Of a stretch of DNA of 64,000 bases, positions 5,288-12,285 are shown in pieces. The notes under the pieces are model-generated. The model ran no database searches. It had not been told where the DNA came from and was given only the letters and a program-made list of their open reading frames with translations. Position numbers and translations under genes: made by a program. This stretch comes from an uncultured Clostridia bacterium (lineage in GTDB: Bacteria; Bacillota; Clostridia; TANB77; CAG-508): NCBI GenBank assembly GCA_904381285.1, contig CAJFII010000002.1:35782-99781 (forward strand), read 5' to 3'. Within the stretch, counting starts at the first letter, position 1, and every line of letters begins with the position of its first letter.

Positions 5288-7045
5288 CTATAATTCAATA
5301 TTTCCAACTTCCATAACATGTCTTTTCAATATATATGAATCTCCTGTATTAATTGCTCCATCACTATTTATATCTGCTGCTTTCTTTTGACTATCATTTG
5401 TTAATGATTTTACTTCCATTATAACTTGTTTAATAAGGAATGTATCACCTGTATTTACAGCTGCATCTCCGTTTATATCTCCTAGTACAATTATATTATA
5501 TTCTTTATTATTTTTTGTATCTTTTAGTTTATATCCTGTAGCTAATTTATCATTATCATTTTTCTTTGTTCCATCTTTTGTAACTTCATATGATGTAATT
5601 CCTAATTCATTTACCATTGTTTTTACAGTAGTATTTGGTATTGCTTTTACATTTGTTCCTTCTATCATTGCATTTTTTACTTCTTCACATGGTTCTAAGT
5701 ATTGACTTGCCATGTATCCTACTACTCCTGAAGATATTTTAACCTTATCCCAATAATATCCATCAGCATATGCACATTTTCTTTCTTGTACCGCAACTAT
5801 TTCATCTAAAGTAGTCATAACCGCAAGAGATGAAGCAGATGTTGTAGGTGCACTTCTAACTCTAACATCTGTACCTACCATATAATATAGTGTTCCATCA
5901 TTTGCTGTTAGATTTGTTGGTAATTTATTTGATTTTGGCATATTATTATAAACTGGTATAACAAAATTAAGTTTTTCATTTATTATATTAGCATTGATGT
6001 ATGTTCTATATAGGCTACTTGTTTGGCTTGTTGGGTCTTGTATATTAGTCATGTATTGATGTCTAAAACATTTACTTGAACTAACATCTTGTGACGCACC
6101 TGATTTTAATATTGATGTACCCACAACATCCCATTTATAAAAATATGCTGTATTTTGTCCTGCATTTGTATAAGAGTTTGCAAGTAATTTTGCTCCACCA
6201 ACTATAGCTTTATATTGGTCATTCCATGGTAATAACAAATTATTTTTTTCTTCTTGAGTCATACTAGATGTACCATTTTTAGCATATTCTAATCCTTTTG
6301 CTATTGGACTTCCTCCATCACTTGCTCCATAATTATAGAAATTATAATATCCCTCATATCCTGGATATGTACCACTAACAGATTCACTTCCTTTTGAACC
6401 TACCTCTTGAATAATTTTAGTTGCGATACTATATGGACTCATTCCACTTTGTCTAGCTGCTTCTAGAATTATTTCTTCATATAACATTTCTTTTGTTTGT
6501 CCATTTACATTAACTCTCACTTTTTTATTTTCCATGAAAGTTCCTTTAATTACACTTTTAATACCTTCTGTTGTATGTATTTTTTCATTGAACGAAATCT
6601 CTAAAAATTGAAATACTTTAACATCATTATTCAAAAAATTTCTTGGGTCCATATAATATTTTATTATATCTGCTGAAGCACAAGCATACCCTGTTGCTAC
6701 ATCTCCACAACTACATTTCCATAAAGAAGTTGCACTATTATGAATTCTGTTATGACCATGGTCTGTTTCGTTAGCTACTAATTCATTCCAGTCAATTCCT
6801 GTATAGTATGCATCAAATGTCCAATTTGGATGTATCTTTTTTAATTCATTTAAATACACTTGATAATCTTCTGGAAAAGCTTCTATTCCACTTTTTATAT
6901 ATTGATGATATGTACTTGCGGCATTTGTAGAATTAAATAATCCAATTATACTGTATGATAGTATAAAAATTACTATTATTATTGCTATAATTCTATTTCT
7001 ATTTAAAATTCTTTTGTTTTCTTGCATATTCCCCTCCAAATTCAT
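5288..7045 (-). CDS. Peptidoglycan hydrolase: GH73-like N-acetylglucosaminidase + SH3b + C-terminal dockerin
   Basis: N-terminal TM/signal segment. GH73-like core (IIQEVGSKG...YYNFYNYGASDG...GQNTAYFYKWDV). SH3b-like segment (VRVRSAPTTSAS...GYMASQYLE). Two Ca-binding dockerin repeats (DINGDAAVNTGD / DINSDGAINTGD). Confidence 0.75.
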   Translation of the reverse strand: MNLEGNMQENKRILNRNRIIAIIIVIFILSYSIIGLFNSTNAASTYHQYIKSGIEAFPEDYQVYLNELKKIHPNWTFDAYYTGIDWNELVANETDHGHNRIHNSATSLWKCSCGDVATGYACASADIIKYYMDPRNFLNNDVKVFQFLEISFNEKIHTTEGIKSVIKGTFMENKKVRVNVNGQTKEMLYEEIILEAARQSGMSPYSIATKIIQEVGSKGSESVSGTYPGYEGYYNFYNYGASDGGSPIAKGLEYAKNGTSSMTQEEKNNLLLPWNDQYKAIVGGAKLLANSYTNAGQNTAYFYKWDVVGTSILKSGASQDVSSSKCFRHQYMTNIQDPTSQTSSLYRTYINANIINEKLNFVIPVYNNMPKSNKLPTNLTANDGTLYYMVGTDVRVRSAPTTSASSLAVMTTLDEIVAVQERKCAYADGYYWDKVKISSGVVGYMASQYLEPCEEVKNAMIEGTNVKAIPNTTVKTMVNELGITSYEVTKDGTKKNDNDKLATGYKLKDTKNNKEYNIIVLGDINGDAAVNTGDTFLIKQVIMEVKSLTNDSQKKAADINSDGAINTGDSYILKRHVMEVGNIEL

Positions 7046-7134
7046 TTGTAAATTTATCCTATTTTGGCATAATTAGTATATCACTGTTCTAAATTGTAAG
7101 TCAATGAATTTGGGTATTGTAATATAAATGTAAT

Positions 7135-7170
7135 AAAAGAACACCTATTCTTATAAATAGATGTTCTTTT
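7135..7170 (-). terminator. Rho-independent terminator after pilin-like gene P1
   Basis: 15-bp stem (AAAAGAACACCTATT/AATAGATGTTCTTTT, one mismatch) followed by a U-run on the minus strand, 8 nt after the stop. Confidence 0.6.
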
Positions 7171-9968: not shown

Positions 9969-10014
9969 GCCTTATTCCAATCCTTTCTGTTCAAAATTAT
10001 TATCCAAAACTTTT

Positions 10015-12285
10015 TCATTGCTCTATAAAACTAATTTCTAATATATGCTTTTGTATTTTAAGCACATCTAATGAAGAAGGTAAATTACCATTTTTTGAAA
10101 TATTTCCAGATTTTAAGAATGTTCCTGTCAATAGTTTTGTTTCTAATATATGTTTTTGTAATACTAATACATCAAGTGAATTTATTAAACCATCTCCATT
10201 TAAATCACCATATATTATAAATGTAAACTTATATATTTCATCCCCATTTTCATCTTTTAATACAAGTTTAGAATCTGTTCCTATTTTATCTGTATCGTTT
10301 AATAAATTACCTTCACTATCATAAAATTCCAAATTCAAATTTGTATTAATTAAAGCTTTTATATCATTTACAGTAGATTTTTCTAAGTTTATTTTACTTA
10401 TTTCATCAACTTCAACTTTTAAACTTTCATCTATTTCAAAAACAATATCTTGGTTGAATTCTTTTACTGTTACTTTACACTTTGCTTCAACATTTTCCTC
10501 ACTGTTCTTTGCTATAATTTCTGCTGTTCCAGCTGAATTTGCGGTTATTGTTCCGTCTTGTGTAACACTTACTATTTGAGTATTCGTCGATGACCATTTT
10601 ATCATCTTGTTGCTTGCATCTTCTGGTAATACATTTGCTGTTAATTTTGCTGTTCTTCCTACAAATAACTCAATTTCTTTTTTTGACAACGTAATATTGG
10701 TTACTGGTGAATATACTGTAATTTCTATTGTATCTTTAATACTTCCATCAATTGTACTTGCTGTTACTGTCGCTTTTCCTGCAGATATTCCCTTTATTTG
10801 TCCATTATTATCAACTGTTAATATATTGTCATTACTTGAAGTCCATTTAATTTCCTGTGTTACATCTGCTGGTTCTATTTCTATTTTTATATTATCTACA
10901 CTCCCCTTATTAATTACATTATTATCTATACTTAATTTTATGCTTGTAATAGTTGGAGTAGGAACTTCTTTTAAATAACTTTGAAATACATAGCCTACAA
11001 TTCCATTTTCTAGTTCTACCTTATCCCATCTTTCACCAGTTTGTACGCCTCTTTTTATTCTTGTTAAAACATCATTTCTATTTACTGTTGTTAATATTTC
11101 ATGTGATGTAGATGGTCCAGAACGAACATTCAAATTTCCTGATACATCTGCATACATTTTTGTATTATCCGCTACATAATCAGACTCTAAGATGTTTGGA
11201 CTTTCAGTTGCATATTGTGGCATATTTTCATATACAGGTATAACAAATCCTATAGATGAAGATAACATTCCATTCGAAGAATATGCTTTATATATTCCAC
11301 TAGATTCACTATATGGTGCTAAACAATTTGTCATATACTGATGCCAAAATAGGTCATTACCTCTATCATCATTTACATCAAATTTTTGAAGATACAAAGT
11401 ATTTTGTCCGATAGATATATAACTGCTACCTATAAATACTGCACCACCTTTTATTGCTCTTTCAGGATCTGTCCATGGTATTATTAAATTTTGTTTTACC
11501 TCTTCAGAAGCTCCTTTTCCATCTTTTGCAAATTGTAATCCGTTTTTTATTGCTCCTAATGGTTCTGGTGAACTTGTTGCTCCTATATTATAAAAATTAT
11601 ATAGTCCTTCAAACCCTGAAACAGTTCCACTTATAGAATTATGTGTTATAAATGGTCCTACCTCTTGTTTTATTCTTGATGCTAAATGATATGGACTAAC
11701 ACCTGAGTACACACCTGCATTCCAAATTAAATCTGAATATTTAGAATTCATGGTAATATTTTGACCTGTAGCTGTTTTATATGTTGCTGTTCTATTATAA
11801 AATTCCGTACCATATAATATTTTCTCAATTCCTTCTTTTGAATTAATTGCAGGATCATAAGATAATTTTTCAAACTGAAAAATTCTAACTTCATTTAAAA
11901 AGTTTCTAGGATCCATCGTATATTCAACAGCCTTTTTAGAAGCATTTACCCAACCTGCATCTATTTCCACATTATATATTCCATTATCAGTACACTTCCA
12001 GTGGTCTGAATATGAAATTGGCACTAAGTTTTTATCATTTCTATATTCTTGTGATATTACATAATTCCAGTCAAATCCTGTATACAATGCTGTAAATTCC
12101 CAATTAGGATATTTTTTCTTTAATTCATATAAATACGGCTTATAACTGTCTGGGAAATTTTCAATTCCTTGTTTTTTTATTGATGCCATAGATTTTGTAG
12201 AAAACAATATTATAATAAATATAAAAAAAGAAAAAAATACTATATGTTTCAAGTATGCTTTTTTTATCATAACATTCTCCTTCAC
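10015..12285 (-). CDS. Peptidoglycan hydrolase: GH73-like + SH3b + 2x Big_2 + C-terminal dockerin
   Basis: Paralog of 5288-7045 in its N-terminal and catalytic part (IKQEVGP...LYNFYNIGATSS...GQNTLYLQKFDV). SH3b (LNVRSGPSTSHE...GYVFQSYLKE). Two Ig-like repeats (IKWTSSN.., IKWSSTN..). Dockerin (GDLNGDGLINSLDVLVLQKHIL + degenerate second repeat). Confidence 0.75.
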   Translation of the reverse strand: MKENVMIKKAYLKHIVFFSFFIFIIILFSTKSMASIKKQGIENFPDSYKPYLYELKKKYPNWEFTALYTGFDWNYVISQEYRNDKNLVPISYSDHWKCTDNGIYNVEIDAGWVNASKKAVEYTMDPRNFLNEVRIFQFEKLSYDPAINSKEGIEKILYGTEFYNRTATYKTATGQNITMNSKYSDLIWNAGVYSGVSPYHLASRIKQEVGPFITHNSISGTVSGFEGLYNFYNIGATSSPEPLGAIKNGLQFAKDGKGASEEVKQNLIIPWTDPERAIKGGAVFIGSSYISIGQNTLYLQKFDVNDDRGNDLFWHQYMTNCLAPYSESSGIYKAYSSNGMLSSSIGFVIPVYENMPQYATESPNILESDYVADNTKMYADVSGNLNVRSGPSTSHEILTTVNRNDVLTRIKRGVQTGERWDKVELENGIVGYVFQSYLKEVPTPTITSIKLSIDNNVINKGSVDNIKIEIEPADVTQEIKWTSSNDNILTVDNNGQIKGISAGKATVTASTIDGSIKDTIEITVYSPVTNITLSKKEIELFVGRTAKLTANVLPEDASNKMIKWSSTNTQIVSVTQDGTITANSAGTAEIIAKNSEENVEAKCKVTVKEFNQDIVFEIDESLKVEVDEISKINLEKSTVNDIKALINTNLNLEFYDSEGNLLNDTDKIGTDSKLVLKDENGDEIYKFTFIIYGDLNGDGLINSLDVLVLQKHILETKLLTGTFLKSGNISKNGNLPSSLDVLKIQKHILEISFIEQ

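What the first reader, a model, noticed from the sequence alone, without database searches (positions are those of the whole stretch)
5288..12285. Non-cellulosomal cohesin-dockerin module: a membrane-anchored cohesin-like scaffold flanked by two dockerin-bearing GH73-like peptidoglycan hydrolases
SEEN: 8559-9968 encodes a signal peptide, a cohesin-like beta-domain, a G/S/T linker, two cadherin-like modules and a C-terminal TM. Both neighbours (10015-12285 and 5288-7045) are GH73-like + SH3b proteins ending in duplicated Ca-loop dockerin repeats (DINGDAAVNTGD/DINSDGAINTGD and DLNGDGLINSLD plus a degenerate NISKNGNLPSSLD). A further cadherin-like TM protein (3860-5272) and a pilin-like gene (7178-8236) are embedded in the cluster. 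There is no obvious terminator in the 34 nt between fabI and the first hydrolase. ESTABLISHED: cohesin-dockerin pairs outside cellulosomes are known, but pairing with cell-wall hydrolases is not a described system as far as I know. INFERENCE: the scaffold would dock autolysins at the membrane or wall interface.
Basis: partly seen in the sequence, partly recalled or inferred. Interest (0 to 1): 0.7.

Follow-up and report, generated by a model that had tools for sequence, protein, structure and literature searches.

The report
Cohesin–dockerin tethers for cell-wall hydrolases
An uncultured gut Clostridia bacterium encodes cell-wall-cutting enzymes that carry the "plug" (dockerin) of the cellulosome plug-and-socket system right next to membrane-anchored "socket" proteins, and in related strains one plug and its neighbouring presumed socket are swapped together as a cassette, pointing to strain-specific docking of wall hydrolases on the cell surface.

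Summary
8559-9968 encodes signal peptide–cohesin–G/S/T linker–2 cadherin-like domains–TM. The cohesin passes Pfam when scanned alone (35.6 bits vs 24.1), and its AF2 model matches only solved cohesins. Both neighbours are GH73-type glucosaminidases with a retained catalytic Glu, an SH3b domain and true type I dockerins.

The "one scaffold, two hydrolases" model is only half supported. GH73B–docB (10015-12285) lies directly upstream of the cohesin gene in 30/30 species-level genomes. DocB, including its odd second loop, is conserved in all of them. DocA (5288-7045) is present in about a third of loci and switches type between near-identical genomes whose cohesin is unchanged. DocA co-varies 13/13 (r = 0.92) with the N-terminal β-sandwich of the next gene (3860-5272). 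The two are exchanged as one ~0.6-0.9-kb cassette. That N-domain is not demonstrably a cohesin (CARDB/Ig-like top hits; HHalign 56%).

So there are probably two separate pairs. Related genomes add an amidase–dockerin unit of the same design. The GH73/dockerin/cohesin association has been noted in passing before (R. bicirculans; rumen surveys) but never characterised. All binding is inferred. New variant of a known kind; interest 0.6.

The parts
10015..12285 (-). GH73B-docB: signal peptide (aa 1-34), GH73-type glucosaminidase domain (aa ~35-357; invariant Glu in KQEVG, nt 11656-11670), SH3_3 (aa 383-439), 2x Big_2 (best stretch aa 527-604), type I dockerin (aa 692-749; loop 1 nt 10171-10206, atypical 13-residue loop 2 nt 10066-10104)
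   Evidence: An orthologue sits directly upstream of the cohesin gene in 30/30 loci.
8559..9968 (-). Membrane-anchored scaffold: signal peptide (aa 1-25), cohesin (aa 26-147, nt 9528-9893), G/S/T linker (aa 148-232, nt 9273-9527), 2x Cadherin-like (aa ~240-405), acidic segment, TM (aa 438-461, nt 8586-8657), short basic tail
8485..8524 (-). Terminator-like hairpin (17-bp stem then T-run) just after the cohesin gene; ends the GH73B-cohesin transcription unit
5288..7045 (-). GH73A-docA: signal peptide, GH73-type domain (aa ~43-371; Glu in IQEVG, nt 6398-6412), marginal SH3_3 (aa 393-451), canonical symmetric type I dockerin (aa 521-577; loops nt 5444-5479 and 5339-5374)
3860..5272 (-). Presumed docA receptor/anchor: signal peptide (aa 1-29), variable class-i beta-sandwich N-domain (aa 30-126, nt 4895-5185), linker, second beta domain (aa 143-225), Cadherin-like (aa 265-341), TM (aa 374-393, nt 4094-4153), long acidic cytoplasmic tail ending KGKHF
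4895..5485 (-). Swappable cassette in window coordinates: docA + 15-nt gap with strong RBS (TAAGGAGG) + signal peptide + N-domain of the next gene
   Evidence: By homology to the divergent blocks L006 8850-9433 vs L016 and L003 ~12950-13870 vs L004. Junction sequence.
7075..7104 (-). Promoter-like site (TTGACT-18-TATACT with TG) upstream of GH73A; weak evidence only
   Evidence: The number of promoter-like sites equals the shuffle expectation.

Best explanation
The region holds two separate two-gene units of one design: a secreted peptidoglycan hydrolase ending in a dockerin, followed by a type-I membrane protein whose outermost domain is the docking site.

Unit 1 (10015-12285 + 8559-9968). 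GH73B-SH3b-Big_2x2-docB is exported. Its dockerin binds, presumably Ca-dependently, to the N-terminal cohesin of the Coh-linker-Cad-Cad-TM protein. The ~85-residue G/S/T linker and two cadherin-like domains would hold the cohesin out through or beyond the wall. The glucosaminidase is thereby kept on the producer's own surface, probably for wall remodelling or daughter-cell separation.

Unit 2 (5288-7045 + 3860-5272). This works the same way, but the receptor is a small, fast-evolving beta-sandwich, possibly a stripped-down cohesin. The dockerin and this receptor exist as matched allelic types that are exchanged together by recombination.

Shown here: domain identities, retained catalytic Glu, conserved adjacency, cassette co-replacement.
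Inferred: physical binding, Ca dependence, surface topology, physiological role.
For: Cohesin identity rests on sequence and fold. Dockerins pass Pfam.

The GH73 fold family is supported, and the invariant Glu aligns with the LLETG Glu of SagB. This holds in 40/40 sequences.

Unit 1:
- GH73B-docB is directly upstream of the cohesin gene in 30/30 species-level genomes, in varying flanking contexts.
- DocB is 65-94% conserved, including its atypical loop 2.
- The cohesin domain is better conserved than the cadherin-like part of the same protein.
- A hairpin terminator follows the pair.
- Two more distant lineages have cohesin(LPKTG)-sortase-GH73-SH3-dockerin-Cad-TM in unrelated contexts.

Unit 2:
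- DocA type and N-domain class agree in 13/13 loci.
- Pairwise identity r=0.92, Mantel p~1e-4. By contrast r=0.32 with docA's own catalytic domain and r=0.03 between the N-domain and its own C-terminal part.
- L006 vs L016 are 98-100% identical over 8 kb except for a ~590-nt block that is exactly dockerin + signal peptide + N-domain. L003 vs L004 show the same.
- The N-domain sits at the position equivalent to the cohesin in a parallel architecture.
- The genes are tightly coupled, with a 15-nt gap and a strong RBS.

Modularity: Amidase_3-Big_2-dockerin + N-dom-Cad-TM units occur in L026/L029. A transglutaminase-like-dockerin + cohesin-like-LPKTG unit occurs in L014.
Against: No binding was tested, and no complex model could be made with these tools.

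The unit-2 N-domain is not a recognisable cohesin. Pfam finds nothing. Foldseek's top hits are CARDB, SoxYZ and other Ig-like folds, with cohesins only at ranks 5 and 23, TM ~0.6. HHalign against the cohesin profile gives 1.4% with 5 sequences and 56% with 50.

Co-replacement of two physically adjacent segments can arise from linkage alone.

Only 13 loci and about 4 classes were sampled, and the classes were first assigned by eye.

The amidase dockerin discriminates poorly between class i and class ii.

Self-directed versus attack function is not resolved. Other cohesins or dockerins elsewhere in the genome cannot be excluded from a 64-kb window.
Confidence: 0.62

Rival explanations
1. One reading: the single cohesin protein (8559-9968) is a shared scaffold that docks both GH73A and GH73B. 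The 3860-5272 protein is an unrelated accessory membrane protein.
For: Only one recognisable cohesin lies in the window alongside two dockerins. DocA and docB are both type I dockerins. Some cohesins are promiscuous (general knowledge).
Against: DocA recognition positions differ radically between genomes whose cohesin is about 99% identical. 18 of 30 loci have the cohesin and GH73B but no GH73A. DocA tracks the downstream N-domain instead.
Confidence: 0.12
2. The docA/N-domain co-variation is linkage only. The surface-exposed N-domain is under diversifying selection (phage, IgA) and drags the adjacent dockerin along in recombination tracts. DocA binds some other partner, or nothing.
For: The two segments are contiguous in DNA, so one recombination event replaces both. 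The N-domain is not a demonstrable cohesin.
Against: Tract ends coincide with the dockerin's N-terminal boundary and the N-domain's C-terminal boundary in two independent pairs. Dockerin types are as discrete as N-domain classes and match in 13/13 loci. A class-ii-like N-domain also accompanies a dockerin on a different enzyme, an amidase. An unconstrained dockerin would be expected to stay conserved or decay, not to switch between intact symmetric types.
Confidence: 0.18
3. The hydrolases are weapons rather than housekeeping autolysins. Surface-displayed or released GH73/amidase enzymes lyse competing bacteria, as proposed for dockerin-lysozymes in rumen metagenomes.
For: PMC6487960 suggests a 'defense or attack' role for dockerin-borne lysozyme-like modules. 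Polymorphic cassettes are typical of conflict systems (general knowledge). Several hydrolase types use the same design.
Against: Unit 1 is a conserved single-copy pair in 30/30 species, next to housekeeping genes (fabI/acc, mutS2). No immunity-like gene was seen. The closest solved relatives are housekeeping staphylococcal glucosaminidases. This rival concerns purpose, not the docking mechanism, and is compatible with it.
Confidence: 0.2
4. Prophage or mobile-element endolysin cassette unrelated to surface scaffolding.
For: The catalytic domain has 36-44% matches on unannotated human-faecal 'Bacteriophage sp.' contigs.
Against: No phage genes flank the locus. The proteins have Sec signal peptides. 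Position is conserved across 30 species. The phage-labelled contigs are short, unannotated metagenomic records.
Confidence: 0.03

Closest known systems
Ruminococcus bicirculans single dockerin / single cohesin associated with a GH73 (Wegmann et al. 2014, as cited in Ze et al. 2015, PMC4611034)
   Same: A non-cellulolytic gut Firmicute in which the only cohesin-dockerin pair is tied to a GH73 enzyme. This is the closest precedent for unit 1.
   Different: It is known only as a one-line genomic remark. The original paper was not available here and homology to this locus was not tested. It has no reported Coh-Cad-TM fusion, second unit or cassette switching.
R. flavefaciens RflaF_05439 (NlpC/P60 x2-XDoc) binding the sortase-anchored ScaE cohesin (PMC3573020)
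   Same: A peptidoglycan-peptidase-like module carried on a dockerin and docked to a cell-surface cohesin.
   Different: It is part of an elaborate cellulosome, uses a type III X-dockerin and a cysteine peptidase fold, and has no dedicated adjacent partner gene.
Clostridium perfringens non-cellulosomal cohesin-dockerin complexes of GH84/GH33 toxins (PDB 2jh2, 2vo8, 2w1n)
   Same: Cohesin-dockerin used outside cellulose degradation in a low-GC Clostridium. These cohesins are among the structural matches of both the window cohesin and the class-i N-domain.
   Different: They assemble secreted host-glycan hydrolases with each other, are not membrane anchored, and do not act on peptidoglycan.
R. 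bromii amylosome (PMC4611034, PMC5814915)
   Same: A cohesin-dockerin system repurposed in a non-cellulolytic gut bacterium, with sortase-anchored scaffoldins.
   Different: Its cargo is GH13 amylases with many dockerins and several cohesins. It is not organised as one-to-one adjacent gene pairs.
S. aureus SagB-SpdC membrane complex (NCBIfam NF052642 'peptidoglycan release complex glucosaminidase SagB'; PDB 6fxp, 6u0o)
   Same: A GH73 glucosaminidase, the closest solved relative of the catalytic domains, whose activity depends on being held at the membrane by a partner protein.
   Different: SagB has its own TM anchor and pairs with a CAAX-like polytopic protein. No cohesin or dockerin is involved. 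The analogy is functional only.

Membership tests
Cohesin (PF00963) | Sequence match to the family model above the curated threshold | tested here: met
   Domain aa 25-149 alone: E=1.3e-8, 35.6 bits vs 24.1, full model coverage. 22/25 relatives also hit. The full-length scan missed it.
Cohesin (PF00963) | Nine-stranded beta-sandwich (jelly-roll) fold superposable on solved cohesins | tested here: met
   AF2 pLDDT 93.1. The top 30 Foldseek PDB hits are all cohesins, TM 0.7-0.83.
Cohesin (PF00963) | Binds a dockerin | not testable with these tools
   Only indirect support: a dockerin gene is adjacent in 30/30 genomes.
Type I dockerin (PF00404) | Sequence match above the curated threshold | tested here: met
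   DocA 43.4-45.8 bits and docB 31.7-35.1 bits, vs 22.9. PDB dockerins match at 1e-8.
Type I dockerin (PF00404) | Two ~22-residue repeats, each with a 12-residue D-x-[DN]-x-D...D calcium loop followed by a helix | tested here: inconclusive
   DocA: both loops are canonical. DocB: loop 1 is canonical. Loop 2 is N-I-S-K-N-G-N-L-P-S-S-L-D (13 residues, Asn/Ser ligands), yet conserved in 30/30 species, and the two helices are near-identical.
GH73 (PF01832 glucosaminidase) | Match to the Pfam family model | tested here: not met
   No PF01832 hit at E<=1, on full-length proteins or isolated domains.
GH73 (PF01832 glucosaminidase) | Significant similarity to structurally characterised GH73 enzymes | tested here: met
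   Profile vs PDB: SagB 6fxp 7.6e-12, Atl 6fxo 1e-11, AtlE 4pi7 7e-7. NCBIfam SagB scores 5.6e-11 but only 42 bits against an equivalog cutoff of 425, so it is not a SagB orthologue.
GH73 (PF01832 glucosaminidase) | Catalytic general-acid Glu in the E-[ST/V]-G motif | tested here: met
   The Glu of KQEVG/IQEVG is invariant in 40/40 sequences and aligns with the LLETG Glu of SagB in the profile alignment. The identity of that SagB residue as the catalytic acid rests on prior knowledge.
GH73 (PF01832 glucosaminidase) | Muralytic (N-acetylglucosaminidase) activity | not testable with these tools
   Needs zymography or muropeptide analysis.
Cohesin, for the N-domain of 3860-5272 | Sequence or profile match to cohesin | tested here: inconclusive
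   No Pfam hit. HHalign vs the cohesin profile gives 1.4% with 5 sequences and 56% over 95/98 columns with 50 sequences.
Cohesin, for the N-domain of 3860-5272 | Cohesin fold | tested here: inconclusive
   AF2 pLDDT 91. The best Foldseek hits are CARDB 3idu, SoxYZ and SOR. C. perfringens cohesins appear at ranks 5 and 23 with TM ~0.6.
Cellulosome / amylosome-type multi-enzyme scaffoldin system | A scaffoldin with multiple cohesins integrating several dockerin-bearing polysaccharide-degrading enzymes | tested here: not met
   There is a single cohesin per protein, the cargo is peptidoglycan hydrolases, and no plant-polysaccharide CAZyme-dockerin occurs in the window or the loci.
Type IV pilin (for 7178-8236) | N-terminal prepilin cleavage/methylation motif above threshold | tested here: not met
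   PF07963 at E=0.0076, 16.2 bits vs 21.2. The motif G|ITLIA lacks Glu+5.

The most novel reading that the evidence does not exclude
The dockerin of GH73A and the N-terminal beta-sandwich of the adjacent membrane protein form a family of matched, mutually exclusive 'lock-and-key' alleles exchanged as one cassette between strains. If so, a new, minimal (about 95-residue) class of dockerin receptor exists. It would also mean surface docking of peptidoglycan hydrolases is strain-specific. That could serve to privatise an autolysin to kin cells, or to let an exposed receptor vary under phage or antibody pressure without losing its enzyme.
Probability: 0.3. Interest if true: 0.8.

Novelty: new variant of a known kind. 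Interest (0 to 1): 0.6.

Why it matters
Cohesin-dockerin pairs are the best-known protein "plug-and-socket" in microbiology, studied almost entirely for cellulose degradation. This locus shows a whole clade of uncultured gut and rumen Clostridia using the system as a dedicated, genetically hard-wired way to position cell-wall hydrolases. Controlling such potentially lethal enzymes is an unsolved problem for most Gram-positives.

The matched dockerin/receptor cassettes would provide a natural series of orthogonal binding pairs. That is useful for designer scaffolds, and it offers a tractable case of how cohesin-dockerin specificity evolves. Both pairs are short soluble domains, so the predictions can be tested directly in vitro without culturing the organism.

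Tried and rejected
1. Full-length Pfam scan for cohesin gave a false negative caused by the low-complexity linker. It was resolved by scanning the domain alone.

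2. The single-sequence PDB alignment placed the Atl catalytic Glu opposite a Gln in the window protein. I rejected this after the profile alignment and the 40/40 invariance of the QEVG Glu.

3. The Peptidase_M28 hit on GH73A (21.3-23.2 bits) overlaps the GH73 core that aligns to SagB. I treated it as spurious.

4. 'Cryptic second cohesin' for 3860-5272 is not established. It remains only a possibility.

5. The HHalign result (94%) was discarded because shared signal peptides drove it.

7. A cohesin-dockerin complex prediction was not attempted. The tool folds single chains of window sequences only and returns no contacts.

8. The metagenome scan to enlarge the docA sample found only 2 further loci.

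9. The homology search on the class-i N-region found 1 protein. The exhaustive HMMER search found 65 clusters.

10. Wegmann 2014 and Peer 2009 were not available.

11. The prophage origin check was weak or negative.

12. Promoter-like sites are no more frequent than in shuffled sequence, so promoter calls carry little weight.

Full report
**1. What is there**

The window is AT-rich (about 28% GC). Pfam, NCBIfam and PDB searches gave these architectures.

- **10015-12285 (756 aa, "GH73B").** Signal peptide, a ~320-aa catalytic domain, SH3_3 (8.5e-12), two Big_2 (1.1e-24) and Dockerin_1 (1.8e-7).
- **8559-9968 (469 aa).** Signal peptide, N-terminal domain, an ~85-residue G/S/T linker, two Cadherin-like domains (3e-21), an acidic stretch, a TM helix and a short basic tail.
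- **7178-8236 (352 aa).** Only a sub-threshold pilin N_methyl match.
- **5288-7045 (585 aa, "GH73A").** Signal peptide, catalytic domain, marginal SH3_3 and Dockerin_1 (4e-11).
- **3860-5272 (470 aa).** Signal peptide, two unassigned β domains, one Cadherin-like domain, a TM helix and a long acidic cytoplasmic tail.

**2.

*Cohesin.* The full-length scan did not report PF00963. This was an artefact of the low-complexity linker. The isolated domain scores 35.6 bits (cutoff 24.1, E=1.3e-8) over the whole model, and 22 of 25 relatives also hit. An AF2 model (pLDDT 93.1, pTM 0.84) finds only cohesins among its top 30 PDB matches. These include types I, II and III and the non-cellulosomal C. perfringens and Archaeoglobus cohesins, at TM 0.7-0.83. 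The domain is a cohesin by sequence and by fold.

*Dockerins.* Both pass Pfam and match solved type I dockerins.

*GH73.* Pfam PF01832 is not hit. A family profile does reach the S. aureus GH73 structures SagB, Atl and AtlE at 7.6e-12 to 7e-7. A Glu in KQEVG/IQEVG is invariant in 40/40 family members and aligns with the LLETG Glu of SagB. These are divergent GH73-type enzymes with the catalytic acid retained. They are not SagB orthologues (42 bits against an equivalog cutoff of 425).

**3. Unit 1 is a conserved pair**

A profile of the cohesin domain found 30 loci in one-genome-per-species collections. All are uncultured Clostridia MAGs from rabbit, deer, sheep, cattle-type and human guts.

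- In 30/30 loci the orthologue of GH73B-docB lies immediately upstream of the cohesin gene. Flanking genes vary: fabI/acc is upstream in only about six loci.
- DocB is 65-94% identical across these species. This includes its unusual second loop (consensus G-N-[IT]-S-K-N-G-x-L-P-S-S-L-D), which is 13 residues long with Asn/Ser in place of Asp. The two helices remain near-identical to each other. This is a conserved asymmetric dockerin, not a decaying one.
- In the window, a 17-bp hairpin plus T-run follows the cohesin gene. No terminator-like site separates fabI from GH73B.
- Two more distant lineages (L031, L034; catalytic domain about 66% identical) carry the same parts in another arrangement and in unrelated contexts. 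The order is cohesin protein, sortase, GH73-SH3-dockerin, Cad-TM protein. The L031 cohesin protein passes Pfam Cohesin at 1.8e-9 and ends in LPKTG-TM-basic tail. The dockerin has the same odd loop.
- The window's Coh-Cad-Cad-TM protein therefore looks like a fusion of the separate cohesin and Cad-TM genes of those lineages.

**4. Unit 2 is a different pair**

GH73A and the 3860-5272 gene follow the cohesin gene in only about a third of the loci.

DocA is canonical and internally symmetric. Its recognition positions fall into discrete types: NTGD-F-IKQ, [ST]-[ST/A]-D-Y-x-IKN, [DN]SGDLL-KK-LLG, and LAND/TTVD/DAKD-A-x-LK.

The N-terminal domain of the downstream protein falls into four sequence classes that look unrelated by eye. 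Type and class agree in 11/11 loci, and in the two additional loci from the metagenome scan, making 13/13.

The control for shared ancestry is decisive.
- L006 and L016 are 98-100% identical over about 8 kb, including the cohesin gene and the GH73A catalytic domain. The exception is one ~590-nt block at 46-63% identity that is exactly docA + intergenic gap + signal peptide + N-domain.
- L003 and L004 show the same over about 900 nt.
- Over 45 locus pairs, docA identity correlates with N-domain identity at r=0.92 (Mantel p~1e-4; partial r=0.92). It correlates at only 0.32 with docA's own catalytic domain. The N-domain correlates at 0.03 with its own C-terminal part.

Because the cohesin is unchanged when docA switches type, docA is unlikely to be a ligand of that cohesin. 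The obvious candidate is the co-swapped N-domain, which sits at the position equivalent to the cohesin in a parallel SP-domain-linker-Cad-TM architecture. The two genes are separated by 15 nt containing TAAGGAGG.

**5. What the unit-2 N-domain is**

- AF2 gives a confident 7-8-strand β-sandwich (pLDDT 91.2).
- Foldseek ranks CARDB, SoxYZ and superoxide reductase first. C. perfringens cohesins come at ranks 5 and 23 with TM about 0.6.
- Pfam finds nothing.
- An exhaustive HMMER search of 1.84 billion representatives found only 65 clusters. In nearly all, the domain lies right after the signal peptide. 41 of the 44 scanned carry a Cadherin-like domain.
- With 50 sequences, HHalign aligns it end to end with the cohesin profile. 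The alignment implies loss of a ~17-residue segment, but at only 56% probability. With 5 sequences the probability was 1.4%.
- Class ii shows slightly more cohesin signal: Pfam Cohesin E=0.013 for L007, and z=6.9 between the amidase-partner domain and the window cohesin.

My verdict is that a minimal, highly diverged cohesin is possible but not shown.

**6. The design is modular**

L026 and L029 carry a third unit. It consists of Amidase_3 (1.9e-29)-Big_2x2-Dockerin_1 (2.2e-15), followed by SP-N-domain-linker-Cad-TM. That N-domain is closest to class ii (z=13.6).

L014 has a transglutaminase-like protein ending in a dockerin-like repeat pair, followed by a cohesin-like LPKTG protein.

"Enzyme-dockerin next to its own anchor gene" is therefore a recurrent layout in this clade, and the cargo in the main units is peptidoglycan hydrolases.

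**7. Mechanism**

Shown:
- domain identities;
- retained catalytic Glu;
- Sec signal peptides on the hydrolases and on both anchors;
- a type I membrane topology signature (C-terminal TM followed by basic residues);
- conserved adjacency of the genes;
- cassette co-replacement.

Inferred:
- the hydrolases are exported and captured by Ca-dependent dockerin binding to the outermost domain of their cognate anchor;
- the linker plus cadherin-like stalk presents that domain across the wall;
- the result is retention of muralytic activity on the producer's surface.

A self-directed role (remodelling or cell separation) is favoured by conservation and the housekeeping context. An offensive role, as suggested for dockerin-lysozymes in rumen metagenomes (PMC6487960), is not excluded.

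The cause of the cassette polymorphism is speculative. Candidates are phage or antibody pressure on an exposed receptor, or privatisation of the enzyme to kin cells.

**8. Comparison with what is known**

- Non-cellulosomal cohesin-dockerin systems are established. Examples are the C. perfringens toxins, present as PDB hits, and the R. bromii amylosome (PMC4611034).
- The specific GH73 association has been remarked on once. [quoted passage not shown]
- R. albus strains have dockerin-bearing GH73s (PMC4081043).
- R. flavefaciens has an NlpC/P60-XDoc protein that binds ScaE (PMC3573020).

I found no description of the following in the searchable literature:
- a conserved operon-like hydrolase-dockerin/cohesin-anchor pair across a clade;
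- the Coh-Cad-TM fusion;
- the family of hydrolase-dockerin + anchor units;
- the co-swapped dockerin/receptor cassettes.

The library is incomplete, and two key papers were not held.

**9. Verdict**

The locus is best described as two cognate hydrolase-dockerin/anchor pairs rather than one scaffold with two clients. The second pair is polymorphic and uses a receptor that is not a recognisable cohesin. It is a new variant of a known kind. Interest is 0.6, because the central interactions are inferred but are unusually easy to test in vitro.

Noticed in passing
window 1391-3767 (+), around 2640-2656: mutS2 is split into two overlapping ORFs by a single extra base. CTT GGC TCA [C]GG TAC TGA would read L-G-S-G-T-D-P-I-E-G, the conserved MutS motif, without it. 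It is either a sequencing error or a recent pseudogene. Several related MAG loci also show frame breaks in this gene.
   Followed up: partly
window 7178-8236 (-), with paralogues at 62968-63984 (-) and 21402-22403 (-): A pilin-like gene (G|ITLIALVITIIVLLILAG, lacking Glu+5; Pfam N_methyl sub-threshold) lies between the two hydrolase units only in this window. It is flanked by terminator-like hairpins (8485-8524 and 7133-7172) and has the best promoter-like site of the region (8410-8382). One paralogue is 83% identical at the DNA level. The function of this multi-copy family is unknown.
   Followed up: partly
window 3863-3883 (C-terminus of 3860-5272) and alignment A6: The cadherin-TM anchor family ends in a nearly invariant cytoplasmic KGKHF motif after an ~75-residue highly acidic tail. 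This suggests an intracellular interaction or signalling role for the anchor. The cohesin-bearing anchor lacks this tail.
   Followed up: no
window 137-835 (+) and 878-1222 (-): A sortase gene sits next to a 114-aa Thr/Asn-rich protein ending in LPQTG-TM-basic tail. In the distant lineages L031/L034 a sortase sits between the cohesin (LPKTG) and GH73-dockerin genes, so sortase anchoring and this system are linked elsewhere.
   Followed up: partly
L001 11412-13226: In the closest relative of the window (cohesin 98% identical), GH73A is rearranged. A partial GH73 N-terminal segment is followed by an internal class-ii dockerin, then a second GH73 core and an SH3 domain, with no C-terminal dockerin. 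This may be a recombination product or a MAG assembly chimera.
   Followed up: no
L014 6975-11219: A 1,072-aa protein with a transglutaminase-like Cys-protease core and a C-terminal dockerin-like repeat pair is followed directly by a 342-aa SP-cohesin-like-PEQ-repeat-LPKTG protein. This is another adjacent enzyme-dockerin/anchor pair, with a non-glycosidase cargo.
   Followed up: partly
L026 4880-7602 and L029 1934-4856: Amidase_3-Big_2x2-Dockerin_1 is followed by SP-beta-domain-T/P linker-cadherin-like-TM. This is a third peptidoglycan hydrolase type using the same two-gene design, located upstream of the core GH73B/cohesin pair.
   Followed up: yes
homologues P0001-P0051 and many MAG loci: Database gene calls for the cohesin protein are mostly truncated at or within the G/S/T linker (95-210 aa instead of about 460). 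Many MAG loci show frame breaks in GH73B. The repetitive linker appears to be an assembly or gene-calling trap, which hides the Coh-Cad-TM architecture in public annotations.
   Followed up: no
window 5288-7045, aa 238-338: There is a borderline Pfam Peptidase_M28 hit (21.3-23.2 bits vs 21.3) on the part of GH73A that aligns to the SagB/Atl GH73 core. It is probably spurious.
   Followed up: partly
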